NCBI GenBank assembly: GCA_000004985.1
Contig: GG738931.1
DNA: 64,000 nt
DNA from: Naegleria gruberi
Lineage: Eukaryota
Strand: one strand, 5' to 3'
Of the stretch, positions 1-38,026 are shown in pieces; position 1 is the stretch's first letter, and every line of letters begins with the position of its first letter. A program made the position numbers and the translations under genes. The notes beneath the pieces are model-generated. The model made no database searches. It was not told the DNA's origin and was given only the letters and a program-made list of their open reading frames with translations.

Positions 1-388
1 CCAAACCCAAACCCAAACCCAAACCCAAACCCAAACCCAAACCCAAACCCAAACCCAAACCCAAACCCAAACCCAAACCCAAACCCAAACCCAAACCCAA
101 ACCCAAACCCAAACCCAAACCCAAACCCAAACCCAAACCCAAACCCAAACCCAAACCCAAACCCAAACCCAAACCCAAACCCAAACCCAAACCCAAACCC
201 AAACCCAAACCCAAACCCAAACCCAAACCCAAACCCAAACCCAAACCCAAACCCAAACCCAAACCCAAACCCAAACCCAAACCCAAACCCAAACCCAAAC
301 CCAAACCCAAACCCAAACCCAAACCCAAACCCAAACCCAAACCCAAACCCAAACCCAAACCCAAACCCAAACCCAAACCCAAACCCAA
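1..388. repeat. Terminal tandem array of about 64 CCCAAA units (TTTGGG on the G-strand). This is a candidate telomere at the contig/chromosome end.
   Basis: Perfect hexamer periodicity from base 1 to ~388. The C-rich strand reads 5'->3' on the + strand, as expected at a left chromosome end. Confidence 0.8.
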
Positions 389-961
389 CCTCCACCATTA
401 TAATAACTTCCAAATAAATATTATTCCAATTCCGAAACATCTTCTAAATAATTCCAATCAATATATATTTTTAAAATTATTATGAAACAACTCCTGATGA
501 TATGATGATATGATACGATGATACGATGATATGATGAGATGATTGAATGAGGAAGAGAAAGAGAAGACATCACATTTTTTTTGTATGTTACTTTTCCGTC
601 TCACAATTATCTATTCTATTTTTAAATTTTTCGGTTTGAAAATTATCATTGAAGATGAAATTTTGCAAATATTTAGAAACCTTCCTTCTTGATAATTACT
701 TAGTCGATCAAGGAGGAACAACGTTCTTTATCCATCATTTGGTCTGTTCCCCGATTTTAAATTATAAAATTTTCATTTTTACTCGCTTTTCTAACTTTCA
801 ATATTTGTCTTTCAAACCTGTGCCTTATTGTTCGATGAATATTTGATTTAAAGATGTCATCCTTTCAGGGTAGCTCCTCCTAAATATATAGAACAAGTTT
901 GTAAGATATCATAATGAATGGTTAAGTAGTTTTTCATTGAATAATCAAAGAGTATGTATTT

Positions 962-976
962 CCAAACCCAAACCTT
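962..976. repeat. Short interstitial telomere-like CCAAACCCAAACC tract.
   Basis: About 2.5 telomere units sit immediately 5' of the dispersed repeat. Confidence 0.5.
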
Positions 977-980
977 GAAC

Positions 981-1090
981 AATATTAAATTTCACTAAAA
1001 TATTAATATTATCAGATTTCCACAAATATTACTATTATAATGATGATAAATAACAATGATGATGGTTGGTAGTTGTTCCGATGTGATGGA
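981..1090 (+). repeat. Dispersed ~110-bp repeat, copy A. Copy B is at 54744-54856.
   Basis: About 95% identity over ~110 bp with 54744-54856 (aatattaaatttcactaaaatatta...gatgatggttggtagttgtt). Both copies lie 5' of +-strand F-box/LRR genes. Confidence 0.6.
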
Positions 1091-1108
1091 ACACGGTAGT
1101 ATCTGGAA

Positions 1109-1564
1109 TTGAAAAAAATGACTCAAGTTAAAGGTTTGTGTGATGATCAAAGTTTGCTAATGATTGTAATAGAAATATTTTCTGATGATGTAATTTATGA
1201 AATTATTTCCTATTTATGTGATGATTGGAAATTCGTATTATTAAATTGCGTAATGGTAACAAAACAATGGTTGAACGTCATCCGAGATCGATCCGAGCTT
1301 TCAATGATGGCGAATAATCATTTGGTCAATCAAGTAAATAATGAATTTTTGGATTGTTTTGTATCAATAACATTTGCACGCAATATTTTAAATGACAATT
1401 GGTTTAACATGTTAGGACGTATGACTCAATTGACCACTTTGGAAATTGGAAATAATCTAATTGATGACAATATGGTTAAATTAATTAGTGAAATGAAACA
1501 GTTGACAGGCCTTGATTTGGAAATCAATCAAATCTTCAATGAAGGAGCCAAATCCATCAGTGAA
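1109..1564 (+). CDS. F-box-like/LRR protein of the RNI-like family B. It is a 3'-truncated fragment that stops at the gap and the interstitial telomere array.
   Basis: ATG at 1109. F-box-like motif IFSDDVIYEIISYL...VTKQWLNVI, then LRR units (LTTLEIGNNLIDDNMVKLISEMKQLTGLDL). It is a paralog of the 28351-29335 gene. The tracked ORF continues into N's and CCCAAA, which is an artifact. Confidence 0.6.
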
Positions 1565-1614
1565 NNNNNNNNNNNNNNNNNNNNNNNNNNNNNNNNNNNN
1601 NNNNNNNNNNNNNN
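1565..1614. other. Assembly gap (50 N).
   Basis: Run of n. Confidence 0.95.
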
Positions 1615-1865
1615 AACCCAACCCAAACCCAAACCCAAACCCAAACCCAACCCAAACCCAAACCCAAACCCAAACCCAAACCCAAACCCAAACCCAAACC
1701 CAAACCCAAACCCAAACCCAAACCCAAACCCAAACCCAAACCCAAACCCAAACCCAAACCCAAACCCAAACCCAAACCCAAACCCAAACCCAAACCCAAA
1801 CCCAAACCCAAACCCAAACCCAAACCCAAACCCAAACCCAAACCCAAACCCAAACCCAAACCCAA
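1615..1865. repeat. Interstitial (CCCAAA)n telomere-repeat array, about 42 units.
   Basis: Same hexamer as 1-388 with a few variant units (AACCCA). Confidence 0.8.
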
Positions 1866-1921
1866 GCCTAAAAACCCAAGCCTAAAAACCCAAGCCTAAA
1901 AACCCAAGCCTAAAAATCTAA
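1866..1921. repeat. Four copies of a 14-bp CCCAAGCCTAAAAA telomere-associated satellite.
   Basis: Direct tandem repeats, with degenerate copies continuing to ~1990. Similar motifs recur at 5281-5310. Confidence 0.6.
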
Positions 1922-2525
1922 ACCTTTGAACCTAAAATTGAAATACCAGACCCAATGTTTCAAAGTTCAAACCCTAGCCCAAATTATTGAATATTATATC
2001 ATTCGATTGTAAATGATGAGTAGAACAATGTATTATATTTAGTTTTTCAATTTATAAAATATTAACTTTGTAAATAATGTCAGATTAAAAATTATAAAAT
2101 GAAACCATAGGAAGAATGATAATTTCAAAATCCTTTAATGAGATTATATAGTATATATCTTCACTAACAACATTCATAATCACTCTCATATGAAATTTCT
2201 AAACTTCATGTCTGTAGGTATAAAAGTATCAAGTGAAAAGGGAAGATGTGAGGTAAAAGAGGTCAACAATAACTTTTGAGTTTCTCATCAAAACATATTG
2301 AATCCTAATATGAAAATGTTCCATTTGATTATTAAACATCGAATATCAAATTTATTTTAACTTTCATATTTAAAGATTTCTTCCCTCAACCACACATGGT
2401 CAACTATGATGAAAAGGTGGAAATCTTGATAAAGGACCACCTATTGAAACTTTACCAAAATGATTTATATGATCTATAGTGATATAGAATTCAATTTCAT
2501 ATCATAAGAATTAGAAATGGTACCA

Positions 2526-5162
2526 NNNNNNNNNNNNNNNNNNNNNNNNNNNNNNNNNNNNNNNNNNNNNNNNNNNNNNNNNNNNNNNNNNNNNNNNNNN
2601 NNNNNNNNNNNNNNNNNNNNNNNNNNNNNNNNNNNNNNNNNNNNNNNNNNNNNNNNNNNNNNNNNNNNNNNNNNNNNNNNNNNNNNNNNNNNNNNNNNNN
2701 NNNNNNNNNNNNNNNNNNNNNNNNNNNNNNNNNNNNNNNNNNNNNNNNNNNNNNNNNNNNNNNNNNNNNNNNNNNNNNNNNNNNNNNNNNNNNNNNNNNN
2801 NNNNNNNNNNNNNNNNNNNNNNNNNNNNNNNNNNNNNNNNNNNNNNNNNNNNNNNNNNNNNNNNNNNNNNNNNNNNNNNNNNNNNNNNNNNNNNNNNNNN
2901 NNNNNNNNNNNNNNNNNNNNNNNNNNNNNNNNNNNNNNNNNNNNNNNNNNNNNNNNNNNNNNNNNNNNNNNNNNNNNNNNNNNNNNNNNNNNNNNNNNNN
3001 NNNNNNNNNNNNNNNNNNNNNNNNNNNNNNNNNNNNNNNNNNNNNNNNNNNNNNNNNNNNNNNNNNNNNNNNNNNNNNNNNNNNNNNNNNNNNNNNNNNN
3101 NNNNNNNNNNNNNNNNNNNNNNNNNNNNNNNNNNNNNNNNNNNNNNNNNNNNNNNNNNNNNNNNNNNNNNNNNNNNNNNNNNNNNNNNNNNNNNNNNNNN
3201 NNNNNNNNNNNNNNNNNNNNNNNNNNNNNNNNNNNNNNNNNNNNNNNNNNNNNNNNNNNNNNNNNNNNNNNNNNNNNNNNNNNNNNNNNNNNNNNNNNNN
3301 NNNNNNNNNNNNNNNNNNNNNNNNNNNNNNNNNNNNNNNNNNNNNNNNNNNNNNNNNNNNNNNNNNNNNNNNNNNNNNNNNNNNNNNNNNNNNNNNNNNN
3401 NNNNNNNNNNNNNNNNNNNNNNNNNNNNNNNNNNNNNNNNNNNNNNNNNNNNNNNNNNNNNNNNNNNNNNNNNNNNNNNNNNNNNNNNNNNNNNNNNNNN
3501 NNNNNNNNNNNNNNNNNNNNNNNNNNNNNNNNNNNNNNNNNNNNNNNNNNNNNNNNNNNNNNNNNNNNNNNNNNNNNNNNNNNNNNNNNNNNNNNNNNNN
3601 NNNNNNNNNNNNNNNNNNNNNNNNNNNNNNNNNNNNNNNNNNNNNNNNNNNNNNNNNNNNNNNNNNNNNNNNNNNNNNNNNNNNNNNNNNNNNNNNNNNN
3701 NNNNNNNNNNNNNNNNNNNNNNNNNNNNNNNNNNNNNNNNNNNNNNNNNNNNNNNNNNNNNNNNNNNNNNNNNNNNNNNNNNNNNNNNNNNNNNNNNNNN
3801 NNNNNNNNNNNNNNNNNNNNNNNNNNNNNNNNNNNNNNNNNNNNNNNNNNNNNNNNNNNNNNNNNNNNNNNNNNNNNNNNNNNNNNNNNNNNNNNNNNNN
3901 NNNNNNNNNNNNNNNNNNNNNNNNNNNNNNNNNNNNNNNNNNNNNNNNNNNNNNNNNNNNNNNNNNNNNNNNNNNNNNNNNNNNNNNNNNNNNNNNNNNN
4001 NNNNNNNNNNNNNNNNNNNNNNNNNNNNNNNNNNNNNNNNNNNNNNNNNNNNNNNNNNNNNNNNNNNNNNNNNNNNNNNNNNNNNNNNNNNNNNNNNNNN
4101 NNNNNNNNNNNNNNNNNNNNNNNNNNNNNNNNNNNNNNNNNNNNNNNNNNNNNNNNNNNNNNNNNNNNNNNNNNNNNNNNNNNNNNNNNNNNNNNNNNNN
4201 NNNNNNNNNNNNNNNNNNNNNNNNNNNNNNNNNNNNNNNNNNNNNNNNNNNNNNNNNNNNNNNNNNNNNNNNNNNNNNNNNNNNNNNNNNNNNNNNNNNN
4301 NNNNNNNNNNNNNNNNNNNNNNNNNNNNNNNNNNNNNNNNNNNNNNNNNNNNNNNNNNNNNNNNNNNNNNNNNNNNNNNNNNNNNNNNNNNNNNNNNNNN
4401 NNNNNNNNNNNNNNNNNNNNNNNNNNNNNNNNNNNNNNNNNNNNNNNNNNNNNNNNNNNNNNNNNNNNNNNNNNNNNNNNNNNNNNNNNNNNNNNNNNNN
4501 NNNNNNNNNNNNNNNNNNNNNNNNNNNNNNNNNNNNNNNNNNNNNNNNNNNNNNNNNNNNNNNNNNNNNNNNNNNNNNNNNNNNNNNNNNNNNNNNNNNN
4601 NNNNNNNNNNNNNNNNNNNNNNNNNNNNNNNNNNNNNNNNNNNNNNNNNNNNNNNNNNNNNNNNNNNNNNNNNNNNNNNNNNNNNNNNNNNNNNNNNNNN
4701 NNNNNNNNNNNNNNNNNNNNNNNNNNNNNNNNNNNNNNNNNNNNNNNNNNNNNNNNNNNNNNNNNNNNNNNNNNNNNNNNNNNNNNNNNNNNNNNNNNNN
4801 NNNNNNNNNNNNNNNNNNNNNNNNNNNNNNNNNNNNNNNNNNNNNNNNNNNNNNNNNNNNNNNNNNNNNNNNNNNNNNNNNNNNNNNNNNNNNNNNNNNN
4901 NNNNNNNNNNNNNNNNNNNNNNNNNNNNNNNNNNNNNNNNNNNNNNNNNNNNNNNNNNNNNNNNNNNNNNNNNNNNNNNNNNNNNNNNNNNNNNNNNNNN
5001 NNNNNNNNNNNNNNNNNNNNNNNNNNNNNNNNNNNNNNNNNNNNNNNNNNNNNNNNNNNNNNNNNNNNNNNNNNNNNNNNNNNNNNNNNNNNNNNNNNNN
5101 NNNNNNNNNNNNNNNNNNNNNNNNNNNNNNNNNNNNNNNNNNNNNNNNNNNNNNNNNNNNNN
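2526..5162. other. Assembly gap (2637 N).
   Basis: Run of n. ORFs called across it are artifacts. Confidence 0.95.
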
Positions 5163-7606
5163 CACCCAATCCATATAATAATTGAACACAATATTTAACG
5201 TAGATAAAATCGATTTACTTTGAAAAGTAATTTTAAAAATTATACGCCAAAATAGAGCAGCTTTCTTGTAGTGTTGAATTTATTTGTCCGAAAACCCAAG
5301 AATCTAAACCTAAAAACCTATGCTAATTGAATATTCAATCTCATACCGGAAAAGATTCTTATTTGCGGAAAAAGATTCGAATCTTAGCGAATCTTCAATC
5401 AATTTCGAATGGAAACTGAATCTAAGAATCCAAGAATATCGAAATCTTTACCACTTTCCAAATAACAACGCAAACAACAAATACACCAAATCTCGATATC
5501 TAGATAGAAAGTATTTACTTTTTTTAAAACTTTACTGAAAAACCTTTCCAAAAGCCCAAGATTCACTTAAAGACTCTATATTAGATCATAAAGACCATGG
5601 TGCCACCGAAGTAACAAATCAAAACAACTCTAATCCATACCCAACCAACCTTTTATATTCATGATTTCAACTCTAACATGCCATCTGATAAACTATGGAC
5701 ACGGATGAATTTCTGGAAAATGACCACCCTATGAAACATTACCATCATGTTCCACATCTCAAATAATGTATATAATTCAGTTTTTAGACGTTTTGGTGAA
5801 CATTCCATCTTTCAGTAAGGTAAAGAGTGATTTATCAAGGTTGACTTAGGAAATCTTGAATATAGAAAACCATATCCTCAATCAACAAAATACATATCAA
5901 TCGATTGGAAATCATTAGTACATCTCGAAAATATCATTTATTTTATGTTTTGAAATCTCTCCTTTACCTCTTTTGGTCAATTAAGACAATTAAGGATGAG
6001 AATATAGGAAAAATTACCAATCTCAAAATAATTGATAATATCGAGTTCTACATCTCAAATAAAGTGGACTTTCATCAAATTATATGTTTTCATTTCAAGA
6101 AATGCATTCAGTAGATAGTACATGGTGATATTTCAAGAGAATGGAAATCTGAAGGATACAGAAACAACTCCATTTTCACTGAAATTGATATCATGGTATG
6201 CAGACACTCCAATTAGTATGTGGTATCAATTTCATGAATATTGGTTCAGTAGATGTCGAGATGTCAACTCTATCAATTTACTATAGATATTTGACATGAT
6301 ATCATAGATTATACTCCAACTCACTCATTTTACATATAACAAGTCTAGAATTGATACCACATAGTCTATATATCAATTAAATACATCTACAATAGTTTAG
6401 AAACATTTCAAACTACTTTCATAAAACTANNNNNNNNNNNNNNNNNNNNNNNNNNNNNNNNNNNNNNNNNNNNNNNNNNAGTTGAACACCATCGATAGCA
6501 AATCATCTCTAGTATGACATATATTTTTTATTGATCAATTTCTGATCATTCTTTTACCTTTCCCTAGGAATAGTAAAATCGCAATATATTGAGTGAGGAA
6601 TTGCTGATTATCTCAATAATTAGATAAGAAACCATACACAATCTATAGCCCACTGGATAGCTGAGATTGTAACCTATTTAATGATGTATATCATTGATTA
6701 TGTATTTCAATAATAATGAAGATCCAATGAGTACGAAACGATAACCAACCTCTCAGGTCTTTACGATACAAGAGACGTTAATAAATATTACAATTTACAT
6801 GTTACTTATTCATATTGCATGCAAATCAACCTGATTCAATCTACAAAGGTTGGTAGTTGCACCACTTCGTGGCGAAACTACCCATCCACGATGAATCAAC
6901 ATTAGATTCACTTCCATTCAACTCAATTTGACCGTTATAATCAATAAATCAATGAAATGTTTCTTTATTAGCAAACCCTATTCAATCTAATGAGTAGATT
7001 CACGTCCCAAACATTTGACTTCTAAAAGTCCATAATTCAAAAGTTAGTACTGACCTGACCTTTAAATATCTATCAATACAAGAAATGAAACCATCAAATT
7101 TACATCATTAATAGATGATAAGAAATATAATCAATGATATAAATCTTCACTAAGTAATCTCTTAAATAACCCAAATAAATCAACTCTGAATACTAAGTAC
7201 ATTATTTGGAAGAGCCACATAGATTTTGGATACTATCTGAACTGAAATGAGGTAGAAAGAGTACAATCTTCAACACCAAACAATTTATGTCTTATTAATA
7301 TTGTTCCAAGTGCGATAATTAGGACACAACATGAAATTTTACAAAATACCAATTATAATTTCGAATTAGTTGGTGAAATACGTAAAAATAATGCTAATGT
7401 TGCATATATTTGCTTCGGATTCTGAATTATTGATTTTAAAATCCGGGGAAATAAAGAAGGCCGAAAGCAAAATATCTAATATTGAAATAGAGGAACCATT
7501 CGATGGAACTACCACTTTACTATCAAAATGTTATGAAAATTAAGAGTATCATTCAGTTGATGCTTCTTCATCATATAATTTTCAATTTCCATTCATCATT
7601 CAGAAT

Positions 7607-9019
7607 TTAAACAATTTGATTGTACATAAAGTTTCCTTTCTCTTCTGCCTTAACAGCTCCATCCATTCTATCCACATAATAAATTCTATCCAATGGCTGT
7701 TCATCCCATTTTGCATAATGTGTCAGGTAATGGTCCCATCTTCCAGCATTTCCTCCATTCACACCTTCATTTGCAATGGTTCTTACACGAGGAGAACAAG
7801 GCACAAGAGTGTATCGTTGTTCACTTACTCTCAGTTGACTCATTCCATAATCATAAATTCTACCATTGACCTTCCATTGACTGTAATATTCCATAAATAT
7901 TTCCCTGGTAATTCCACTTCCCCATCCAGGAAAATAATCCTCCTCGACCAATTGATGCACTGAATGAATTCCACACTTTGAGGACTTGTCATTTTTCAAT
8001 TTATCAACTAGGAAATGACAATCAACAGTTGAACCTTGAGTAAATGCAGTAATTGCAAATATTTTCTTGCTATCATAATAATTAGCTTCCTTTCCATACA
8101 CCAAATGATACAAACTGTAATGATATCTGTAAAAATCAGGACTTGCTTCCAAATCATCTTCCAATGTAATCACATATGGATAATCAAGTTTTTGAGTTAA
8201 CATGTACATTCCATAAATGTAATGTGAATTCAAAATTAGTCCAATATCTTGTTTTAATTTATCCATTCCTAAACTTCTCATATCTGTCAAGTATGGGTGG
8301 AAATAAACTTTGATTTTCACACAAGTAACTTTAACTAATTCTTCCAAAACTTCATCAAAATCTCCACCATCAATTGTGACATAGAGAATTGTATCAGAAA
8401 TGTCATCAATTTGACAGATGGCAGCTAGTGAAATATCCAAAGGACTTCTTCTCTTGAATGCTTTCAACCAAATAGGTAAATGCCCCTCCTTTGGTGTCAA
8501 ATGTCCATTCAAAGTAAATCCCAAATTATTCAGCTTTAGTTTTTCAGTATTTAATTCTTCTCCGTCTAAACCTCTGGAAATTCCTTTCCAATATTTTCCA
8601 TTATTTTCCAGCCATTTAATGAAATTGGTTTCGTGAGCAAAAGTAGATGGTGAGAAATTAGGCCAAGGATCACTTTCGTCTCGTTTCTTCCTAGGCGAAA
8701 CTCTATTATAAAGAGTTCCTTCACATTGCTGGGATTGAAGAGTATACATTTGAAGAGGAGGAATAACTGCAAGTGGTTTAATATTTACTAACGAGACATG
8801 TTTCGGTAATTTATCATGGAAAGGTTTCGTATTAGATTCTTCTAATTGACGACGAGTGGCATGTTGATGCTGATGGTTATGTGTTAGAAAGACAGAAAGT
8901 ATGTAATAAAGAATGGCTGCACCTCCGATAAAGATGAATAAACGTTTCAGCGTTATCTTGCTTCGTAGCATTTCGAATATTTTTTTTTGAAAGGTTTCTG
9001 AGAATCCTTTCCACCACAT
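7607..9019 (-). CDS. GT13-family N-acetylglucosaminyltransferase I-like (MGAT1-like), type II membrane glycosyltransferase.
   Basis: 470-aa single ORF. N-terminal signal-anchor (LFIFIGGAAILYYILSVFL). The motif ITLEDDLEASPDFYRYH matches the GnT-I EDDLEVAPDFFEYF signature. Confidence 0.6.
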   Translation of the reverse strand: MWWKGFSETFQKKIFEMLRSKITLKRLFIFIGGAAILYYILSVFLTHNHQHQHATRRQLEESNTKPFHDKLPKHVSLVNIKPLAVIPPLQMYTLQSQQCEGTLYNRVSPRKKRDESDPWPNFSPSTFAHETNFIKWLENNGKYWKGISRGLDGEELNTEKLKLNNLGFTLNGHLTPKEGHLPIWLKAFKRRSPLDISLAAICQIDDISDTILYVTIDGGDFDEVLEELVKVTCVKIKVYFHPYLTDMRSLGMDKLKQDIGLILNSHYIYGMYMLTQKLDYPYVITLEDDLEASPDFYRYHYSLYHLVYGKEANYYDSKKIFAITAFTQGSTVDCHFLVDKLKNDKSSKCGIHSVHQLVEEDYFPGWGSGITREIFMEYYSQWKVNGRIYDYGMSQLRVSEQRYTLVPCSPRVRTIANEGVNGGNAGRWDHYLTHYAKWDEQPLDRIYYVDRMDGAVKAEEKGNFMYNQIV

Positions 9020-9114
9020 TCATGATATATATTTTAATAATTTTCAAAATAATTCAAAATAATTCACAATAATTGTAATTTATAATATTTCAAACTAATC
9101 CAAACTAATTCAAA

Positions 9115-12100
9115 CTAATCCAAGAAATGTGCAGGTGAATCTGACGTTGCTGACGAAAATATTCCACTCGGCACCTTACTCTCCACCACTCTCATCTCCT
9201 TCTCTACAGCCAAATGATTTCCACCAACCATCAATCTCTGCAAAACTCCATCAAACGGATACAAAAAATTATCTTTTTGCAAGTTTTTCACCTTTTCATT
9301 GATTTTCTTTTTGAAAATTTTCAATTTTTGTTCACCAATTTGTTTGTAGAGGATTAGTGAGAGAGTGTCCATGAAGCGATCGTAGAGTTCTTTTTGTTGG
9401 ATGGTTTTGAAGGTTGAGACTTTCCATTTGATTTGGAAATGGAGATGACAGAAGGCAACGAATAGACTTTCGAATATAGCATCCTTGAGGGAGGAATCTA
9501 CTGTTGAAGTGTTGATGAGAGATTCGGATTGTTCCAAAACTGAAAAGAGAGTTTCTTCTAATCTGACATTGAATATTAAGCAGGAATAGAGACGGCAATA
9601 AATTGCACAAATGATTACATCATAGTAGGTTTCGTCCTTTCCAGAATATTCATTTGAAAATGTAAGATTTTTGAGGTAATCCGTTGGTTTGGAGAGAATT
9701 TGGAACAACTTTGGAACTGGAAGGGATAACAAGGTGGAGAGGAATATTAATCCTTTTCCTTGAGATGTCACAAGTTTTCCACTATTGTCAGATGAAAAGC
9801 TCAGGAAATCCTTAGATGGAAAATGACATCCATAACAATTGGCAGCTGCTGATAATCCAACGACTAAATATTTAGCATCTCCCATTAGGGTTTTGAGTGT
9901 TCCTATCTTTCTTGGTTTGAAATTCAATTCTCCTAATGAAATATTTGAAGCAATGGTGGCATTGGAAAGTTGTTTCACAAATTCTTCACATTTTTGCTTG
10001 AAAATTTCTTCAGTTGGCTTGGAAAAGACGAAACTATCTGAAATGACATCATCCGGAATTGGAGTTTCAGTAGCTCCTGTCTTCATGTGTGATATGAATT
10101 CGTCAGTGGTCAATTCACCAATTAGAATCAAACCTCCATCAACTGAGCTTTTCAAAACTTGGACAATATCTTTAGGATTCATCAATTCAATTTGTTTTGG
10201 ATGTTTCATTGGAAAGACGATTGATTTTCCTTGATTTCCAATAATCCAACTATCTCTATGTCTATTCACTCCATCATCATTCAAATACGAAACTCCATTA
10301 TTGAGCTCAATATCCCAAACATTGGCACGCAATGATAATCCATCAAATATGGTCATATAGCAATTATATTCGGTTTGACTGATATGTAAATCTGTAAAGA
10401 ATAAAATATCGTATGGATTTTCCTCACCTTCCTTAATAGGAACATAACTTGGAGCAATACGAATGTCCATATTGTGTTTCTCAATATCATCTCCTTTGTA
10501 AACAAGAGTAACTGAAACTGAAACTCTTTCAAAATAGCTCACATGTTCAGAGATTGAAAATTCTACTTTCTGTTCAAATGTTGAAAGTGATGAAATGTTT
10601 GTCACATCAATAAATAGTGAACTGTTTTGCTTGTCCATGACACATGATGGAATTCCAAAATCACTGACTTGGATTTTAGGATCATAATTGAGTCTCAATC
10701 CAATCTTTGATCCATCTCCTCCCTTATCGAGACCTGACACATTTTTCACAATAATTGAAATGTTTCCTCTTCCTTTCTTATCCAAAACTCTTGTGGACGA
10801 AACGGATTGAATTTCAATTGGTAATTGAATAAACATGGAACCTTCCTTTCCAGAATGGTGTACTCTATCAAAATATTTGGTACATGTTGTAAAAGAGGCA
10901 GTATCTCTATATGAACCGTAATTCATAACTTGTGTTCTTGCTCTTTCAGCTATTTTCCCCTTAAATTCAAAATCCTTTACAGTAATTTCTTCATCTGGTG
11001 CCAAAGCTTGACCAAGTAAATAAACCATTCCGTTGGATGTGAAATTCTCTCCATTATTCACTTGGAAGACGGCTCCTGGTGGTGCAGTCAATCCTCCACT
11101 ATTTCTAATTTTGAATGATTTGATTAAAATTTCTTCACCTGGTTCAATAATTCCATCATCCACAACTGGAATAATCTTGAAATCAGACATGTAAATTTTG
11201 TACTTGATTGGAGATTGCTCTTTCACTAATCTGGTTTGTGGATCGAGAATTCGATATAAAATTGTTCCAGAACTTCCATCAACTCCTTTGTGACCATTAA
11301 ACCCACTTGTTCCATTTCCTCCTATACTTCCAGTTTTACCATTTAATCCTGATCTTCCTTGAATTCCTTTTTCGTATTTGATTTCTTCTTCAATTGGTGA
11401 ATTATCTTTCGGATTTATACTGACAATCTTTTTGGTTGATTCTCCAGGTTCTCCTCCTTCTCCACCAGATCTGTTTTCACTCATGTAAACAATTTTGAAT
11501 AATTAAACTAAAAAACTCACCCTCCAATGCCAAATCTTGATTATTGTCACATTAAGGTAATTATTAATGTGTCACAATAGAATACTTACTCTCCACCCAA
11601 TCCACCTTGTCCTGCCGATCCTGCAGAACCTCCCAAACCATATTTACCTCCACTACTCGTTGCAAAACAATAATCTAACAAGTATGGATTGATTGCATCA
11701 ATGTGAATTATTCCACCATTTCCTCCATTTCCACCTCTGAATTTTAATAATCCAAATGCAATGAATTGTGTCAACTTACCTTCCTCCGTAACCACCACAT
11801 CCACCATAACCTCCACTGTGTAAAATTTGTGTAAATTTTCTCAAGTAGATCAATAAAAAACTTACTCTCCTCCATCAGCACCACTTTTTTGAAATGATTA
11901 ATCAAAAATTTTCAAACATTTTACTTACTCTCCACCACTGATTCATCATTAGAATTTTGATCAACATCTTGTAAACTTACGATTTTCCTCTAAATTTAGT
12001 TTAGGATTTTGAATAATTAACAGTCAACTTACTCTTCACCATTGTGCCCTTTTGTTCCCTTCTTTCCCTTCCCGCCAATACCACCATTTCCTCCTCTAAA

Positions 12101-17249: not shown

Positions 17250-18806
17250 ATGACTGTAATACAAAATAACAACAAGAAGAGAAAGCACGAAGAATCATCA
17301 CAATTTCCTTCCGATGATGAATTTTGTGAGGATGGAAAAATAATGGACGAATCGGATTTATTTGAAGAATTGATGGAAGTGAATTGTAAATTAATTTCAT
17401 TGGCGAAAAAGGCAAAAGTTGTTGATTGTCGTTATTTTATGTACAATAGTGGAATAATTGATGAATTTATTGGCAATTTTTATGAATTTTTAAAACAAGC
17501 TGAGTTGCAACAGAAGAAGGCTGTAAAATCCTCTTCGGAACAGTTTAATTCGGATGTTTTATCAGAGATTTATCAATTCTTGGATACATCAACGGTCATA
17601 CATGGATGTGGATTGGTTTCTAAATTGTGGAATCAATCATTAAAGGGATTGAAATTGAAAGTCAGAGCTCAAAACATTGACATTTTATTGAATAGTTCAA
17701 TAATTACAAACATCACTCAATTGGAATTGGTTTCTACCACTGATGAAACATTTAAATTACTTTCAAATTGTAGAAATTTGGATAAACTGAACTCATTAGA
17801 TTTGTCAAGTAATAAGTTAGAAAAGGCATCCATTGATCATTTAATTAAATGTCATATGCCAAATTTGACAGAATTGAATTTGGCTTATATCAAACAATTT
17901 ACAGAAACAGCAGCAATAGAATTGTTAAACAGCCGTTTTATGAAAAGCATTAAGAAATTGGATTTATGTGAATCTTTAGAGAATTGTTCAAAGAATTTAT
18001 TTGCTTCCATTTCACAATCAAAAATTTTGAATCAAATCACCCACTTGAAAATTAATAGGTCCACTTATAATAGATACATAACGGACAAAGAGCATGGAAT
18101 TGATATTTTCTTGAATGATAAATTCAGTTTAGAACATTTAGAAACAGTACATTACCAATTGGATGTTCTTCCTAATTTATTAACAAATGGAAATTATAAG
18201 AATTTGACCTCACTTGATATTTGCAGTTGTAAAATTAGAAATCAAGTATTTGCAGATTTGATTGTTTCACCAAATTTACCCAATCTCACAAGTCTAAATG
18301 CTACGTATTTGCGTGAAGTGGATGACGACAAATCAGTTGCAGAATTTCCTCCAAATAGTGAAAGTTCACTTACTGATTTGGATTTGGGTAACTTCAGAGT
18401 AGCATCATTTCCTAAACTTGTTGATCATTGTCCAAAACTAAAGAAACTCATAGTTTATCCAGCAAATACCGATGAGGAATCAAAGAAAATACTTCTCAAT
18501 ATGATGAAATCTCCAAATTTATCTAATGTAGAATATTTGGACATATTATGTTGGAACGAAACATCAGAAATTATATTTACCAATCCAATCTTGTCTAATT
18601 TGAAGGAATTACATTTATCACCACTTCATTATGATGATACCGTAGACGTAAAATTAGTATCAAATTGTACAAATTTGATAAATTTAACAACGTTAATACC
18701 TTATACTGACATGGTAACTAAAGAGTGCTTACAGGAATTCAAGAAGAATCCAACCTTTGCAAAATTGAATATACGAGATTTTATGGGACGACCATTGATG
18801 ATTTGA
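17250..18806 (+). CDS. F-box-like/LRR protein, family A paralog 1 (518 aa).
   Basis: True ATG at 17250. F-box-like motif LNSDVLSEIYQFLDTSTVIHGCGLVSKLWNQS, then LRRs (NLTELNL, LTSLDICSCK, LSNLKELHL). About 45-50% identical to the 21596 ORF. Confidence 0.75.
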   Translation: MTVIQNNNKKRKHEESSQFPSDDEFCEDGKIMDESDLFEELMEVNCKLISLAKKAKVVDCRYFMYNSGIIDEFIGNFYEFLKQAELQQKKAVKSSSEQFNSDVLSEIYQFLDTSTVIHGCGLVSKLWNQSLKGLKLKVRAQNIDILLNSSIITNITQLELVSTTDETFKLLSNCRNLDKLNSLDLSSNKLEKASIDHLIKCHMPNLTELNLAYIKQFTETAAIELLNSRFMKSIKKLDLCESLENCSKNLFASISQSKILNQITHLKINRSTYNRYITDKEHGIDIFLNDKFSLEHLETVHYQLDVLPNLLTNGNYKNLTSLDICSCKIRNQVFADLIVSPNLPNLTSLNATYLREVDDDKSVAEFPPNSESSLTDLDLGNFRVASFPKLVDHCPKLKKLIVYPANTDEESKKILLNMMKSPNLSNVEYLDILCWNETSEIIFTNPILSNLKELHLSPLHYDDTVDVKLVSNCTNLINLTTLIPYTDMVTKECLQEFKKNPTFAKLNIRDFMGRPLMI

Positions 18807-21595: not shown

Positions 21596-23119
21596 ATGAC
21601 GGTAATTCAAAACAAGAAGAGGAAACATGAAGAATCATCACATCATGATGATGATGGAAAAATGTTTGATAATGCTGATAATATTGAATCGGTTTTATTT
21701 GAAGAAATGACGACAGTTAATTCCCAATTGCTTTCATTGGCAAACAAGATGAAACTGGTTGATAATATTTATTTTACAAAGAATACCGAAATGATTGATG
21801 AATTTATTGGAAATATTAACGAATTTTTGAAACAATTAGATATGCGTAGGAAGAAGGCTTTTTCTGAAAAATTGAATTCCGATATTTTGTCTTATATTTA
21901 TCAATTCTTGGATACAAATATTCTTAAAGAATGTTGTGGTTTAGTTTCTAAATTATGGAGACAATCAATAGGATTGAAAGTGAAAGTGAGAGATATTGAT
22001 ATTGATAAATTTGTAAATTGTTCACTAATTGAAAATGTAACGTACCTACAATTGGTTGATACTACTGAAGAACCAGAAACATTTAAATGGCTTGTAAATT
22101 GTAGAAATTTGGATAACTTGAAATCATTAGATTTATCTGAAATCGAATTGGAAAATGTAGAGTATTTAATGAAATGTCACATGCCTAATTTGACAGAATT
22201 GAATTTGGCGAAAAGGGTATCTGATGAGGAAGTGGTAATAGAATTGCTTACCAGTAGTTTCATGACCAGTGTTAAGAAATTGGATTTATCATATTCATTC
22301 TACGAATTTCCAATTGATATATATGAATCAATTTCAGAATCTAACTATTTGAGTCAAATCACTCATTTGAACCTTGATAATATGGAATATTTAGAATTTA
22401 CTGGGCTGGATTTACTGCTGAAAGATAAAGTGAATTTGGAACACCTACAAATACGCAAGCATTGTTTGGTTAGTTATCCAAATTTATTTACGAATGGAAA
22501 TTATATGAATCTCACATATCTTGATATTTCCAGTTGTCAATTAAGTAGAAATCAAGAATTTATAGATTTAATGTTTTCTCCAAACTTGCCAAATCTTACA
22601 ACACTCAAGGGCAAGGCGTTATGGGCCGAAGAAGATGGCAAAGAAAAAGACATAGTTGTTGAAATTCCTCCAAACAGTCAAAGTTCTCTCACTGATTTAG
22701 ATATAAGATATTGTAGGGTTGGATTTTATCCATCACTCTTTAATCACTGTCCAAAACTAAAGAAATTATCAGTTTATTCTTTACATGATGAGGAATCAAA
22801 GAAATTACATCTCAATATGATGAAATCTCCAAACTTGACAAATTTAGAATATTTGAAAATGGATAGTTGGAATGAAGCATCAGAAATTATCTTTACCAAT
22901 CCAATCTATTCGAATTTAAAGGAATTACATTTAGTAAGACCATTCAGGAATGGTGAAAACTTAAATGTAGAACTAGTATCAAACTGTAACAATTTGGTCA
23001 ATTTAACAACATTAACTGTATCTGTTGAAACACAAGACTTGCAAGAATTCCAGAAAAATCCCACATTTTCCAAACTGAAAAGAATATCCAATATTGTAAT
23101 ACCACAAAAAAGGCTATGA
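21596..23119 (+). CDS. F-box-like/LRR protein, family A paralog 2 (507 aa).
   Basis: ATG at 21596. The N-terminus MTVIQNKKRKHEESS is almost identical to paralog 1. F-box-like motif LNSDILSYIYQFLDTNILKECCGLVSKLWRQS, then LRRs. Confidence 0.75.
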   Translation: MTVIQNKKRKHEESSHHDDDGKMFDNADNIESVLFEEMTTVNSQLLSLANKMKLVDNIYFTKNTEMIDEFIGNINEFLKQLDMRRKKAFSEKLNSDILSYIYQFLDTNILKECCGLVSKLWRQSIGLKVKVRDIDIDKFVNCSLIENVTYLQLVDTTEEPETFKWLVNCRNLDNLKSLDLSEIELENVEYLMKCHMPNLTELNLAKRVSDEEVVIELLTSSFMTSVKKLDLSYSFYEFPIDIYESISESNYLSQITHLNLDNMEYLEFTGLDLLLKDKVNLEHLQIRKHCLVSYPNLFTNGNYMNLTYLDISSCQLSRNQEFIDLMFSPNLPNLTTLKGKALWAEEDGKEKDIVVEIPPNSQSSLTDLDIRYCRVGFYPSLFNHCPKLKKLSVYSLHDEESKKLHLNMMKSPNLTNLEYLKMDSWNEASEIIFTNPIYSNLKELHLVRPFRNGENLNVELVSNCNNLVNLTTLTVSVETQDLQEFQKNPTFSKLKRISNIVIPQKRL

Positions 23120-28350: not shown

Positions 28351-29335
28351 GGAGCATTGCAAAAATACGGGAAAAACATTTCCACAGATATCCGAAGTAA
28401 ATTATTTACTCTTCTCCGATGATGTTCTCTATGAAATTTTTTCTTTTCATGATGATTTTAAATTTATGGTCATGAGTTGTGCATTAGTTTCAAAACAATG
28501 GTTTAATGTCATTGTTAATCGGTGCAAACTTACATTGAAATGCGAAAATAATAGGATGCAAAAGAAAGGTCAATTTTTACAAAATGTAACAAATCTTCTC
28601 TTTAAAAGAGAAATTGGTGCATTTGATTATAAATTATTAAATTTGATGAAAGGAATAACAACTCTGACAATTAATTACAATAGTATAGGAGTGGAAGGAG
28701 CCATGCATATTAGCAAAATGGAGCAATTGACAAATCTTGATATTTGTAATAGTGTTCTTTATGAAGAAGGAGCAAAATATATTAGTCAACTGGAACAATT
28801 GAAATGTCTAGATATTGGTTCAAACAGTATAGGCAAAAACGGAGCTAAATATATTAGTGGAATGAAACAGTTGACAAGATTAGATATTTTTAATAATACT
28901 ATTTGTGAGGAGGGAGCCAAGTCAATCAGTGAAATGAAGCAATTGACTCATCTCAAAATTACCTTCAATGACATTGGAACAGAAGGAGCCAAATACATTA
29001 GTCAACTGCGAAAATTAACACATCTAGACATCAGTTCCAATGATATTGGTGCTAAGGGTTCCAAATACATTAGTGAAATGAATCAATTGACCATTCTTAA
29101 TATTTATAATAATGATATTGGAAATGAAGGAGTGAAACACATTAGTGAAATGAATCAATTAACAAGGTTGGATATTGGTGATAATGAAATTAGTGCTGAG
29201 GGAGTTAAATATATTAGTGGCATGAAACAATTGACAAACCTTGATATTTCATGGAATAATATTGGAGATGAGGGAGCTCAATTTCTTAGTCAAATGAAAC
29301 AATTAATTTATCTTGAATTTATTACTTTGGATTAA
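28351..29335 (+). CDS. F-box-like/LRR protein of the RNI-like family B, paralog 2. The 5' end is incomplete.
   Basis: The open frame from 28334 encodes ...LFSDDVLYEIFSFHDDFKFMVMSCALVSKQWFNVI (F-box-like), then at least 9 units of a 28-aa LRR (LTxLDIxxNxIGxEGAKYISxMKQ). There is no in-frame ATG before the F-box. A strong acceptor (ttccttttttgtaag|G) at 28350 suggests an unseen 5' exon. Confidence 0.6.
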
Positions 29336-30840: not shown

Positions 30841-32323
30841 TTAATAAGATCTTCCAAAACTTTTGCCACACTTTTTAAGGTTCTTTGGTTTGGGCACTTT
30901 CAAATTCTTCACCTTTGAAAAGGTTGGATTTCTCTTGATTTCTTCTTCCAATTCAGCTAAATACTCTGTTCTCCAAAGGTCCAGGGTTTTTAAATTGACT
31001 AGAGTGGTGCATTTCGACACGAGGGAAATATCTAAAGTTTGGTTAGAGGACTCGTGTAGTTCCAAACGTAATTCCTGTAAATTGGAATAAATTGGACTGG
31101 TAAAGATAATCTCCACTGTTTCTCCACAACAGGTAATATCCAAATATTCCAAATTTGATAAGCTAGGAGACTTCATCATGTTGAGAAGCTCTTTCAGTGA
31201 AATGTATTCATCCTCACCACCAGGAAGAACTTTTAGTTTCTTTAGCTTTGGACAATGATCCAAGAGTGATGGAAATAGCACAAGTTCACAATATCTGATA
31301 TCCAAATAAGTTACCGAACTTTGACTATTTGGAGGAAATGTAGCAACAGTTTCATCGTGATATAAATTGTTAGCTTTGAGTGTTGTAAGTTTTGGTAAAT
31401 TGGGAGAAACAATCAAATTTGCAAAATCTTGATTTTTCATACTAGAATTGTTAACATCCAGAAATGTTAGATTCTTAAGGTTTCCGTTTGTTAAAAAATT
31501 CGTTTGTTTGAATCGATATCCTTCCATTTCTAAATATTCCAAATTCACCTTATCTTCAATAAATAAATCGATTCCAATAATATCTTTTTCCTCATCATCA
31601 TTTCCAAAATTATTAATTTTCAAATGAGTGAGTTGTTTCATATATTTAGAATGTGAAATTGATTCAATAAAGCTCTTTGAACAATCTCTTATAGAATGGC
31701 TTAAATCTAATTTCTTAATGCTTGCCATGAAAGGACTGTTGAATAATTCCTTTGCTATCGTATTTTCAGTAAATTCTTATCGTATCCACCAAATTCAATT
31801 CTGTCAAATTTGGTGTATGACATTTCGTTAAATGCTCAACAGCAACATTAGATAAGGAAAGTAAATCTAATGATTTCATCTTGTCCAAACTTCTACAATT
31901 AGCAAGTGATTTAAATGCATCACCAGAAATAATCAAGGTCAATTTGGCGACATTCTTAACTAACGAACCATTCAGAAAATTGTCCAAGTTTTCACCTCTC
32001 ACTCCCACTTGCAATCCATCCACTGATTGTCTCCACAATTTTGAAACCAAACAACAACACTCCTGGAGTGTAGTATTATCCAAGAATTGATAAATATGAG
32101 ACAAAACATCGGAATTCAATCGATCAGAAGAAGCCTTCTTCCGATTAAAATCCAATTGTTTTAAAAATTCGTGAATATTACCAATAAATTCATCAATCAT
32201 TCCATTGTTATACATAAAGTAACAACTATCCGCTAACTTCACCTTATTTACCAAGGAAATTAATTGCGAATTCACTGTCGTCATTTCATTATATAAAACC
32301 GTTTCAATATTTTCATCATACAT
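30841..32323 (-). pseudogene. F-box-like/LRR family A paralog 3, frameshifted and 5'-decayed.
   Basis: Two ORFs (31766-32323 and 30841-31728) align end to end with paralogs 1 and 2. There is a frame slip near 31745 (NLTELNLVDTIR / EFTENTIAKELFNSPFMASIKKLD). Homology continues upstream of the first ATG (DAFHHHDDDVK ~ ESSHHDDDGK) with no start codon. Confidence 0.55.
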
Positions 32324-33583: not shown

Positions 33584-36500
33584 TTACACTCCAGTCGAGG
33601 AAGAAGCTGAATAATCCTTTTCCTTCTTCCTCTTTTTATACAGTAATGCAACACTCACACCAATGACAATTCCAACAACGAAGAAAATTAATGAAGAAGC
33701 AATGACTGAAACTAGAACTGCAATAATAACAGTGGAATCGTTTGAGGTTTGATCTTGTTTGGGTTGGATGGTGGTGCTTGGTGAATTTTGTTTCTTAATG
33801 TTAATGTCAATGACTGAGAAGGTGGTCAAGTGAGTGGTGAGACATTGAATGGAAACTTGGAATTGATTATTCGAAACTCGTTGAATGAAAGAAAAGAGAG
33901 TAGAAACACCAGTATCACTCCATGAATTGATGTTTGCATCAAAGAACATGCAAGTAAAGTTTCTAATGCTTTCGTTCGAATCTGCTTCAATTGAAATATT
34001 GGCAAAATTAATGATAATTGGATTTGCCAAATTCGAAACTTGGAATTTAGAACCGTCATCTTTGAGGAATGAGACAGAAACTACATCACTGTTGATGGCT
34101 CCAATTTTTTGCTTGGCACTCGTCTTGTTTTGGACTGTTGCAATGATTGTTAAATCTTGAGAAGTGGAAAGTGAACTAATGTCTGATGGAAATTTGACAG
34201 AAACTGAACTATACTTGTGGAAATGCAATTCTTCTGCATCTAGTTCAGTAAGATCAGTCACTGCTCTCTTAATTAATTCCACATCATCTGATTGAGTAGT
34301 TGTGCTACATGTCACATTTCCATTTATAACGTCAACCACAGAAACACAAACTCTATTCGAACAATTCTTTCCAAACCATCCTTCATTACAAAGGCATGAA
34401 TCTGGAGCTGGACATTTTCCATTTCCAGAACATACATTCAAATCAGATGATAACAATGAATAACAAACTGGAATTTCACAATTTGCTCCAACGTATCCAT
34501 CTTGACATTGACAATTATCTTTTGACATGCATTCACCATGTTGGCTACAAACATTTGAATCGTTGAATAACATTCCATAGCAAGTATGATTCTTGGTTTG
34601 ACATTCGTTTCCAATAAATCCTTCACTACATAAACATTGATTTGTGGAATTACACACTCCGTGTCCAGAACAAACTAATGAACTAGTAAATAAAGTTCCA
34701 AAACATTCGAATTGACTACAATCGTTTCCAGAGTATCCATTGGAGCAGGAACAAGTATTTGGAGCACTGCAACTGCCATGTCCAGAACAAACTGCAGAAT
34801 TACTTGGAACAATATCAAAGCATTTGAATGAACTGCAATCACTTCCACTGTATCCAGTTTCACATGAGCAATTATTTGATGAGAGACAATTACCATGTCC
34901 AGAACAAACTACGGAATCATTGAATAATAATCCGTAACAAGTAATTGGAGGTGTAGGTTGTGGAGGTGGATTTTGACATGAAGAGCCAGTGTATCCTTCG
35001 CTGCATAAGCATTGGTTTGAGGAGTTGCATGATCCATGTCCAGAACAAACTGTGGAATCATTAAATAAAATTCCAAAACAAGTAATTGGTGGAGGTTGCA
35101 CAATAAATTCACATGAAGATCCATAATATCCAGTGGCACAAGTACAATTATCCTTGGACACGCATTGGCCATGTCCAGAACATACACTTGTCGATTCGTT
35201 GGCCAAAACTCCAAAACAAGTCAGTGGAGGAATTGGAGCATTCTGACAATTACTTCCAGAGTAACCAACACTACACGTACAATTATCAGTCGCAATACAG
35301 TTTCCAAATCCAGAGCAAACACTGGAATCATTAAAATTCACACCAAAACAAGTATAATTCAATGGAATGACAATAGTGGACTCACAATTATCTCCATAAA
35401 ACCCATTGTAACATGAACAATTATTCTTGGAAATGCAATCACCATGAGAAGAACAAACCAAAGAAGAGTTGAAATGAATACCAAAACAGGAATGGTTTCG
35501 TGTTTCACACATGGAGCCAATGAATCCCTCATTACAAGAGCATTGATCAGTGACATTACATTGTCCATTTCCAGAACACACCAGTGAGTTATTGGCAAGA
35601 TATCCAAAACATGAGATTGGATATTCAGGTTGTAAAATTTGTTTGATTCTCTTGATGGTGCAACCCTCTGCATAGAGAATATCACCATTTGCATTCAAAT
35701 ACAAAGACTTGGCTTGATTGATGAATGAAGTGTTGGTTTGTGTGGAGTTATCATATAAGGTAATTGTAGAAATTAAATTGTCATTCAAAGTTACACGTCT
35801 AATTCTTGATTGTTCAGAAATAATGAGCTCTCCATTTTGAGTTAATAAAATACTGTTTGGAGAATCAATGGTTGCATTGATTGCAAGACCTCCATCAGAA
35901 ACTGATCCTAAATTCGATCCAGTTCCAGCAATAATTGTCAAAACTCCATTCGAATCTAACTTTTTGACAGTATGAGTCGATTTTTCACTAAAATAAATAT
36001 CCAAGTTATTGAGGTTGACGGTCAGATCCGAAATTATTACACCCATAGATCGATACAAGGTTACAATGGTTCCATTATTTGCAAATACCTTACTAATCTT
36101 TCCAGTGCTGGCAATTAGCAAATCGTCGTTAGGTAAAACAAAGAGAGATGTTGGATTGGCAAGAACTGCATTCAAGGCAGATCCTCCATCATTGTCAGAA
36201 CCTGTTGGATTACCATTACCAGCATAATCAAAAGTCATTCCACCAACTACCTTTCTAATACGATGGTTATTCGAATCCGCAATAAATAATTCATTTCTAG
36301 AGTTGAAAGCCAACTTGTTTGGTGAATTGAAAAGAGTTGAATTTCTCAAAGTGTAATTTCCACTATAACCAACCAAACCAGTACCAGCATAAATGTCAAA
36401 ATTTGAATTACCAGATCTAATTGTGGAGTAATCGGAAATGTACAAGCTTCCATCCATTCCAAATGTGAAACTGTTGAGGGAGGAGCTAAATCTCACCAAT

Positions 36501-37672: not shown

Positions 37673-38026
37673 ACTGTTGTTGTTGTGTTGTTTTTTCTTA
37701 ATAATTGTAGTTGTATGGAGCTGAAATGAATAGGGTCTATAAATCAAAAATTGGTGGACCTCAGATCTTCCCATTCCTTCATGGTTAGACCAGTACTTTC
37801 TAAAATGGATTTTTGTATATTCGATCTCCAAAAATATAAGTCCATGGCAAAATGAAAAGTTGTAATGAAATTGGCGGGTTGAAATCAAAAAATACTTGTT
37901 TAGAATATCATACAATTGTAGACAATTAAAATCCAAGTTTAGTTAGTCTTCATCTATCTTACAATATAAAGGTGACAATGTCTAGAAGTGGAAACCATAA
38001 ATGTTATATTTAGTGTTAATCAGTAA

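What the first reader, a model, noticed from the sequence alone, without database searches (positions are those of the whole stretch)
1565..1925. Second, interstitial telomere array and 14-bp satellite truncating an F-box/LRR gene
A (CCCAAA)~42 array at 1615-1865 is followed by 4 CCCAAGCCTAAAAA repeats. It sits directly after a 50-N gap, and the gap cuts the F-box/LRR CDS at 1564. The result is telomere, gene fragment, telomere, then telomere-associated repeats. This is the signature of either telomere healing with subtelomeric duplication or a scaffolding misjoin.
Basis: partly seen in the sequence, partly recalled or inferred. Interest (0 to 1): 0.6.

Follow-up and report, generated by a model that had tools for sequence, protein, structure and literature searches.

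The report
Two telomere contigs stacked by scaffolding
The "internal" telomere array is an ordinary Naegleria gruberi chromosome-end repeat sitting at the edge of a tiny draft-assembly contig, and its apparent position inside the scaffold, next to a cut gene, is most likely a scaffolding artefact rather than biology.

Summary
Positions 1615-1865 hold 41 CCCAAA-type units, followed by four exact CCCAAGCCTAAAAA copies at 1861-1916. A 50-N gap at 1565-1614 cuts an LRR ORF at 1564. The window is the start of a 138-kb scaffold of the 2010 Naegleria gruberi NEG-M draft. TTTGGG is already the published candidate telomere repeat of this species.

- Array 2 starts at the first base of a 911-bp contig, so no sequenced molecule shows non-telomeric DNA on its distal side.
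- Its C-rich strand orientation means it caps the DNA to its right. It cannot be a healed break of the gene on its left, so healing is rejected.
- The 50-N gap is a placeholder, and the ORF still needs about 0.55 kb more.
- No duplication links contig 1 to the rest of the window.

Most likely (about 0.7), two independent telomere-bearing contigs were stacked by the scaffolder. They may come from another chromosome end or from an alternative haplotype end.

A real head-to-tail structure, with a distal element added beyond an old telomere, remains possible (about 0.2). No independent N. gruberi assembly or reads could be reached, so this rests on inference. Interest is low.

The parts
1..388 (+). 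Telomere array A: 64.7 perfect CCAAAC (=CCCAAA) units running to the first base of the scaffold. The C-rich strand is on +, so it caps the DNA to its right.
389..1564 (+). Unique part of contig 1 (whole contig 1-1564, 1564 bp). The junction with array A is abrupt (…CCCAAACCCAACCTCCACCATT…). It has no similarity to contigs 2 or 3.
962..974 (+). A 13-nt perfect telomere-register seed, CCAAACCCAAACC, in the same orientation as the arrays. It is the only such match outside the arrays in 64 kb.
976..1092 (+). Dispersed element of about 115 bp, 91.5% identical to 54740-54856. Both copies lie upstream of an F-box-like/LRR ORF.
1118..1564 (+). N-terminal 149 codons of an F-box-like/LRR gene, open to the contig end. 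It is colinear with residues 19-145 of the 326-codon paralogue frame at 28355-29335, so roughly 180 codons are missing.
   Evidence: The N-terminal 102 aa has no relative in the 5.8-billion-protein collection.
1565..1614 (.). Scaffold gap of exactly 50 N. This is a placeholder size: two of the three gaps in the window are exactly 50, and the third is 2637.
1615..1865 (+). Telomere array B: 41 units (39 CCCAAA plus 2 CCCAA near the contig edge), starting at the first base of contig 2. The C-rich strand is on +, so it caps the DNA to its right.
1861..1916 (+). Four exact copies of CCCAAGCCTAAAAA. The unit equals two degenerate telomere units, CCCAAg and CCtAAA, plus AA. This is a telomere-associated satellite.
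1917..1985 (+). Decaying telomere-like tail (TCTAAACC, CCTAAAA, GACCCAAT, AACCCTAGCCCAAAT). It forms a graded telomere-to-subtelomere boundary.
1986..2525 (.). AT-rich, apparently non-coding remainder of contig 2 (whole contig 1615-2525, 911 bp, about one Sanger read in length).
2526..5162 (.). Sized scaffold gap of 2637 N.
5163..6429 (.). Contig 3 (1267 bp), non-coding subtelomeric DNA. It contains a TAS-like motif at 5291-5311, but that match is not statistically significant.

Best explanation
The window is the left end of a Sanger-era draft scaffold of Naegleria gruberi NEG-M. Its outermost 6.4 kb consists of three tiny contigs (1564, 911 and 1267 bp) strung together by mate pairs.

Array B (1615-1865), its 14-bp satellite and the decaying telomere-like tail form the genuine terminal telomere and telomere-associated boundary of the chromosome end that continues into contigs 3 and 4.

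Contig 1 (array A plus 1.2 kb carrying the 5' part of an F-box-like/LRR gene) is a second, independent telomere-bearing contig. It comes either from another chromosome end or from an alternative haplotype of this end.

The scaffolder placed contig 1 outside contig 2 for the following reason (inferred). Reads consisting only of CCCAAA repeats cannot be assigned to one telomere, so they collapse into the longest array. Their mates then pull that contig onto this subtelomere. The two contigs were therefore predicted to overlap, could not be merged, and were written in tandem with the minimum 50-N spacer.

The gene is cut because the contig ends inside its LRR region, through low coverage or a repetitive LRR family. 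No telomere was added there.

Shown: the anatomy, the orientation, the species, and that the gap is a placeholder value. Inferred: the mate-pair mechanism and the non-contiguity of the two contigs.
For: 1. Species and assembly. Exact protein matches to NAEGRDRAFT_75901 and NAEGRDRAFT_75919 lie on a 138,333-bp record. TTTGGG is the published candidate telomere repeat of N. gruberi (PMC3622300).
2. Array B begins at the first base after the gap. No sequenced molecule carries non-telomeric DNA on its distal side.
3. Both arrays are C-rich on +, so each caps what lies to its right. This is what two independent 'left ends' look like.
4. Array B has 35 consecutive perfect units. Its only two variants lie within 36 nt of the contig edge, as expected for read-end errors. 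It grades proximally into degenerate repeats. Together these are the profile of a telomerase-maintained terminal tract with an old boundary, not of a decaying internal tract.
5. The gap is exactly 50 N, as is the gap at 6430-6479, whereas the third gap is 2637 N. So 50 is a floor value, not a measurement.
6. The ORF lacks about 180 codons relative to its colinear paralogue. A true gap of 50 nt or less followed by telomere repeats is therefore incompatible with an intact gene.
7. Contig 1 shares nothing with contigs 2 and 3.
8. The N-terminus of contig 1's gene has no relative among 5.8 billion proteins. It is therefore not an annotated multi-copy subtelomeric element.
9. The contigs are one to three Sanger reads long, so the join rests on very few clones.
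Against: - No reads, mate-pair data or independent assembly could be examined, so non-contiguity is inferred and not shown.
- Head-to-tail arrays are also what a real distal addition beyond an old telomere would give.
- Contig 1 carries its own small telomere-register relic at 962-974, and contig 3 carries a (non-significant) TAS-like motif. These hint that internalised telomere remnants may occur in these subtelomeres.
- The meaning of '50 N' as a floor value is deduced from three gaps in one window, not from the assembler's documentation.
Confidence: 0.7

Rival explanations
1. The structure is real. A distal segment (telomere A plus at least 1.2 kb carrying an F-box-like/LRR gene) was added beyond a pre-existing telomere, leaving array B as a young interstitial telomeric tract in head-to-tail orientation. 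Possible routes are break-induced replication, telomere capture, or a Y'-like subtelomeric element. The remainder of the gene lies in an under-sized gap.
For: - The arrays are head-to-tail, as between yeast Y' elements (the yeast comparison is from general knowledge).
- The scaffolder did find some link between the contigs.
- A 13-nt telomere-register relic at 962-974 in the same orientation shows that telomere-like seeds can lie inside this subtelomeric DNA.
- There is a possible TAS relic at 5291-5311.
Against: - No sequence crosses the distal side of array B.
- The 50-N placeholder cannot hold the roughly 0.55 kb of missing gene.
- Array B is essentially perfect over 35 units, which is unusual for an internal tract not maintained by telomerase.
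- Contig 1's gene has no paralogue close enough to indicate a multi-copy subtelomeric element.
- The TAS relic in contig 3 is not significant (E=0.19).
Confidence: 0.2
2. Chromosome breakage inside the F-box/LRR gene was healed by de novo telomere addition, so array B marks the break that truncated the gene.
For: The gene fragment and array B are adjacent in the scaffold.
Against: - The orientation is wrong. A telomere added to the right-hand broken end of 389-1564 would read TTTGGG on the + strand, but array B reads CCCAAA.
- The supposed junction is a gap, not sequence.
- Array B grades into degenerate repeats on its right side, which shows that its old boundary is with the DNA to the right.
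Confidence: 0.02
3. End-to-end chromosome or chromatid fusion left an internal telomere tract.
For: None beyond the presence of an internal array in scaffold coordinates.
Against: Fusions give head-to-head arrays (CCCAAA…TTTGGG). No TTTGGG array exists on the + strand anywhere in the window.
Confidence: 0.01

Closest known systems
Candidate Naegleria gruberi telomere repeat TTTGGG (Fulnečková et al. 2013, PMC3622300)
   Same: Same species, same hexamer, found at scaffold termini in the orientation expected of telomeres.
   Different: Nothing essential differs. The present locus only adds the fine structure of one boundary: a 14-bp degenerate satellite, then decaying telomere-like motifs.
Repeat-induced scaffolding misjoins or stacked contigs in Sanger whole-genome shotgun drafts
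   Same: Tiny low-coverage contigs at a chromosome end, identical simple repeats at both contig starts, a minimum-size placeholder gap, and a gene cut at a contig end.
   Different: This could not be demonstrated at read level here.
Yeast subtelomeres with tandem Y' elements separated by internal TG1-3 tracts (general knowledge)
   Same: The order telomere, element, internal telomere tract, proximal subtelomere, with all tracts head-to-tail.
   Different: Yeast internal tracts are short, and Y' is a multi-copy element. Here the tract is at least 251 bp and nearly perfect, the distal segment has no detectable copies, and contiguity is unproven.
De novo telomere addition (chromosome healing) at breaks, as in ciliate macronuclei or terminal deletions (general knowledge)
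   Same: Array A joins unique DNA abruptly at 388/389 without degenerate repeats. That is the junction type healing produces.
   Different: For array B, the array the finding concerns, the orientation is opposite to that required for healing of the gene fragment, and the boundary on its proximal side is graded.

Membership tests
Terminal telomere of N. gruberi | Tandem TTTGGG/CCCAAA hexamers, highly homogeneous | tested here: met
   42.2 copies at 98% matches, including 35 consecutive perfect units. The motif is as published.
Terminal telomere of N. gruberi | G-rich strand runs 5'->3' towards the end, so the C-rich strand is on top at a left end | tested here: met
   CCCAAA is on +, with the chromosome body (satellite, contigs 2-4) to the right.
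Terminal telomere of N. gruberi | The array runs to the physical end of the sequenced molecule | tested here: inconclusive
   It runs to the end of its contig (first base after the gap), but the scaffold places another contig beyond it. The physical end is not testable without reads or Bal31 digestion.
True interstitial telomeric sequence (ITS) | Non-telomeric DNA contiguous on both sides within one sequenced molecule | tested here: not met
   The left neighbour is a 50-N gap, and no base of unique sequence adjoins the distal side.
Chromosome healing / de novo telomere addition at the gene break | Added repeats have the G-strand pointing away from the retained fragment | tested here: not met
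   The fragment 1118-1564 lies to the left of the array, so healing would give TTTGGG on +. CCCAAA is observed.
Chromosome healing / de novo telomere addition at the gene break | Abrupt, sequenced junction between unique DNA and repeats | not testable with these tools
   The junction falls in the gap at 1565-1614.
Fusion-type ITS | Head-to-head arrays | tested here: not met
   There is no TTTGGG run of 3 or more units on + in the window.
Y'-like subtelomeric element with internal telomere tract | Head-to-tail arrays flanking the element | tested here: met
   Arrays A and B have the same orientation. This holds only in scaffold order.
Y'-like subtelomeric element with internal telomere tract | The element is multi-copy at several chromosome ends | tested here: inconclusive
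   The N-terminal 102 aa of its ORF has no relative in the protein collection, which includes the N. gruberi proteome. The genome DNA itself could not be searched.
   Pfam F-box-like gives E=1.3 (9.3 bits) for the fragment and E=3.6e-4 (20.7 bits, cut-off 24.3) for the homologous region of the paralogue.
   Colinear 40% identity (E=2e-24) to the paralogue at 28355-29335, plus repeated matches of residues 87-149 to its LRR units. The paralogue matches LRR_6 at E=2.7e-37. The fragment alone reaches only LRR_8 at E=0.065.

The most novel reading that the evidence does not exclude
The tandem arrangement is real. On this reading, N. gruberi subtelomeres grow by adding gene-bearing segments, each with a new telomere, beyond an existing telomere. 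This would leave a long, still pristine internal TTTGGG tract (at least 251 bp) and older relics such as 962-974. It would be a Y'-like mode of subtelomere expansion in a heterolobosean that spreads F-box/LRR family genes.
Probability: 0.15. Interest if true: 0.3.

Novelty: already known. Interest (0 to 1): 0.1.

Why it matters
It matters mainly as a caution. Anyone counting interstitial telomeric sequences, truncated genes or chromosome ends in the 2010 N. gruberi draft would miscount at this locus.

The locus does give a clean example of one N. gruberi telomere-subtelomere boundary: perfect TTTGGG repeats, then a 14-bp degenerate satellite, then decaying motifs. It also shows that an F-box-like/LRR gene starts about 730 bp from a telomere.

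If the tandem structure were real, it would be a first glimpse of how Naegleria subtelomeres grow. That would be of modest, specialist interest.

Tried and rejected
- Independent assemblies. I looked for other contigs of the same locus through exact-protein look-ups. P0004, P0001 and P0003 are not on record in the look-up of encoding contigs. The homologue search for the first gene (7607-9019) returned only the single N. gruberi record plus distant relatives.
- Protein search with the whole 149-aa fragment. It timed out twice. The N-terminal 102 aa found nothing.
- Metagenome scan for the telomere/satellite junction. It gave 0 matches.
- Metagenome scan for (CCCAAA)8. It returned 120 loci, of which 42 have correctly oriented terminal arrays. 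None has blastn or tblastx similarity to the window, so they say nothing about Naegleria chromosome ends.
- Duplication or haplotype relationship between contig 1 and contigs 2-4. None was found at word size 9 and E<=1e-3.
- TAS relic in contig 3. The match has E=0.19 and is not significant.
- Rfam on 1-12000. No family matched.
- Literature. There is no description of Naegleria subtelomeres. The N. fowleri Nanopore paper does not mention telomeres. The Cell 2010 genome paper and the supplement of PMC3622300 are not held.
- Rejected readings. Healing of the gene break and telomere fusion are both contradicted by array orientation.

Full report
**What is in the sequence**

The first 6.5 kb of the window is built from four sequence blocks separated by runs of N:
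- 1-1564
- 50 N
- 1615-2525
- 2637 N
- 5163-6429
- 50 N
- 6480 onward, which is uninterrupted to 64000

Tandem Repeats Finder finds a perfect period-6 array at 1-388 (64.7 copies) and a second at 1615-1865 (42.2 copies, 98% matches). A period-14 array follows at 1858-1916 (4.2 copies, 100%).

Parsed unit by unit, the second array is 39 CCCAAA plus two CCCAA. Both short units lie within 36 nt of the block's left edge. The array is followed by four exact CCCAAGCCTAAAAA copies and then a decaying tail: TCTAAACC, CCTAAAA, GACCCAAT, AACCCTAGCCCAAAT.

These arrays are far beyond chance. The telomere 12-mer occurs 101 times against 0 in shuffles. The 14-mer gives 5 matches at up to 2 mismatches against 0.64 expected.

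The ORF from ATG 1118 is open to 1564 and runs into the gap.

**Where the window comes from**

Two ORF products are identical to Naegleria gruberi proteins XP_002669112.1 (NAEGRDRAFT_75901) and XP_002669150.1 (NAEGRDRAFT_75919), both on a 138,333-bp record. The window is thus the left end of a scaffold of the 2010 Sanger draft of strain NEG-M.

TTTGGG was already proposed as the N. gruberi telomere repeat from this same assembly (Fulnečková et al. 2013, PMC3622300). The repeat type is not new.

**The gene fragment**

The 149 codons at 1118-1564 align colinearly with residues 19-145 of the 326-codon frame of a paralogue at 28355-29335 (40% identity, E=2e-24). Residues 87-149 also match that paralogue's later LRR units. 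The paralogue matches Pfam LRR_6 at E=2.7e-37.

The F-box label is plausible but below threshold. F-box-like scores E=1.3 for the fragment and E=3.6e-4 for the paralogue, both under the cut-off.

Compared with the paralogue, about 180 codons (about 0.55 kb) are missing after 1564.

The N-terminal 102 residues have no relative among 5.8 billion clustered proteins, a collection that holds N. gruberi proteins. So this gene is neither annotated nor an obvious multi-copy family member at that level.

**Why the array is not shown to be interstitial, and why healing is excluded**

- Array B begins at the first base after the gap. No sequenced molecule carries unique DNA on its distal side, so 'interstitial' is true only in scaffold coordinates.
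- Both arrays have the C-rich strand on +. By the universal polarity of telomeres (the G-strand runs 5'->3' towards the end; general knowledge), such an array caps the DNA to its right.
- Array B therefore belongs to the satellite and contig-2 side. A telomere added to a break at the 3' side of the gene fragment would read TTTGGG on +, and none exists in the window. Healing of a break in the gene and head-to-head fusion are both rejected on orientation.
- Array B is essentially perfect and grades proximally into degenerate units. This is the profile of a telomerase-maintained terminal tract with an old boundary. The two CCCAA variants at the extreme contig edge look like read-end errors (inference).

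**Why a scaffolding artefact is the best explanation**

- The three outer contigs are 1564, 911 and 1267 bp, one to three Sanger reads each. The interior contig exceeds 57 kb. The order of the outer pieces thus rests on a few clones.
- Two of the three gaps are exactly 50 N and the third is 2637 N. So 50 is a floor written when the estimated gap is small or negative (inference).
- A true gap of 50 nt or less followed by telomere repeats cannot hold the missing 0.55 kb of the gene.
- The layout is what one expects if reads made only of CCCAAA repeats collapsed into the longest array (contig 1), and their mates, lying in this subtelomere, pulled contig 1 on top of contig 2. Two contigs predicted to overlap but impossible to merge are then written one after the other with the minimum spacer.
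- Alternatively, contig 1 may be the end of a divergent haplotype of the same chromosome. In that case the linear concatenation is still artefactual.
- Contig 1 shares no sequence with contigs 2-3.
- I put this explanation at about 0.7. It is an inference, because the reads could not be examined.

**The surviving rival**

A real head-to-tail structure remains possible: a gene-bearing segment with its own telomere added beyond an old telomere, as with yeast Y' elements.

Slightly in its favour:
- A perfect 13-nt telomere-register seed at 962-974 inside contig 1, in the same orientation. It is the only such match outside the arrays.
- A TAS-like motif in contig 3 at 5291-5311. This is not significant (E=0.19).

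Against it:
- The placeholder gap.
- The pristine state of the array.
- The absence of any crossing sequence.
- The lack of evidence that contig 1 is a repeated subtelomeric element.

I give it about 0.2.

**What could not be done**

- No independent N. gruberi assembly or reads are reachable with these tools. Exact-protein contig look-ups failed.
- The homologue search for the first gene found only the one N. gruberi record.
- A metagenome scan for the array/satellite junction found nothing.
- A scan for (CCCAAA)8 returned 120 loci, none related to the window.
- A Nanopore reassembly of N. gruberi exists (PMC12695648) and would settle the question in minutes.
- Rfam finds nothing in 1-12000.

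**Verdict**

The sequence observation is correct. The biology claimed for it is mostly not supported. What is there is an ordinary N. gruberi telomere with its degenerate telomere-associated repeats at the edge of a tiny contig, with a second telomere-bearing contig most probably stacked outside it by the scaffolder. The gene is cut by the assembly, not by a telomere. Interest is low (0.1), and the kind of feature is already known.

Noticed in passing
window 962-974: CCAAACCCAAACC is a perfect 13-nt telomere-register seed in the same orientation as the arrays, 575 nt inside contig 1. It is the only match of 12 nt or more outside the two arrays in 64 kb, with 0 expected in shuffles. It may be a relic of an older telomere boundary.
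   Followed up: partly
window 976-1092 and 54740-54856: A dispersed element of about 115 bp, 91.5% identical between the two copies. Each copy lies upstream of an F-box-like/LRR ORF (ATG 1118, and the ORF starting at 55238). It could be a shared promoter or 5' region, or a small mobile element.
   Followed up: partly
window 5291-5311: AAAACCCAAG-AATCTAAACCT equals the satellite/tail junction at 1899-1925 minus one CCTAAA unit. With E=0.19 in this window it is only suggestive of an internal relic of the boundary.
   Followed up: yes
window 388/389: Array A joins unique DNA abruptly (…CCCAAACCCAA|CCTCCACCATTATAAT…) with no degenerate repeats, unlike the graded boundary of array B. So two different boundary types occur within 2 kb.
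   Followed up: no
window 17250-18806 (+), 21596-23119 (+), 30841-31728 (-): Three paralogous LRR ORFs. The first two share the N-terminus MTVIQN..KKRKHEESS, and the second is NAEGRDRAFT_75901, named an F-box domain protein by UniProt. They form a local gene-family cluster within 30 kb of the chromosome end.
   Followed up: no
window 58001-58835, within ORF 57235-59766 (-); also ORF 33584-37936 (-): A 105/210-bp tandem repeat encodes Cys-rich EGF-like modules (…CSGHGxCVSNNTCxC…) of an 843-aa putative surface protein. The 1450-aa ORF carries the same module type after what look by eye like NHL-like repeats; neither ORF was scanned against a domain library.
   Followed up: no
window 495-543: An imperfect GATGATA/GATGATACGATGATAT microsatellite, 110 nt proximal to telomere array A.
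   Followed up: no
loci L003, L013, L019, L038, L039, L042, L050, L057, L064, L069 (JAESGV01 contigs) and others: Many low-GC metagenome contigs end in correctly oriented (CCCAAA)n with abrupt junctions. They are unrelated to the window, so other environmental eukaryotes (possibly ciliate-like) use TTTGGG telomeres.
   Followed up: partly
window 7607-9019 (-): The first complete gene from the chromosome end. Its N. gruberi model (P0004, 454 aa) carries PF03071 and is named alpha-1,3-mannosyl-glycoprotein 2-beta-N-acetylglucosaminyltransferase by UniRef. The closest relative (61% identity) is on an ENA metagenome contig.
   Followed up: partly
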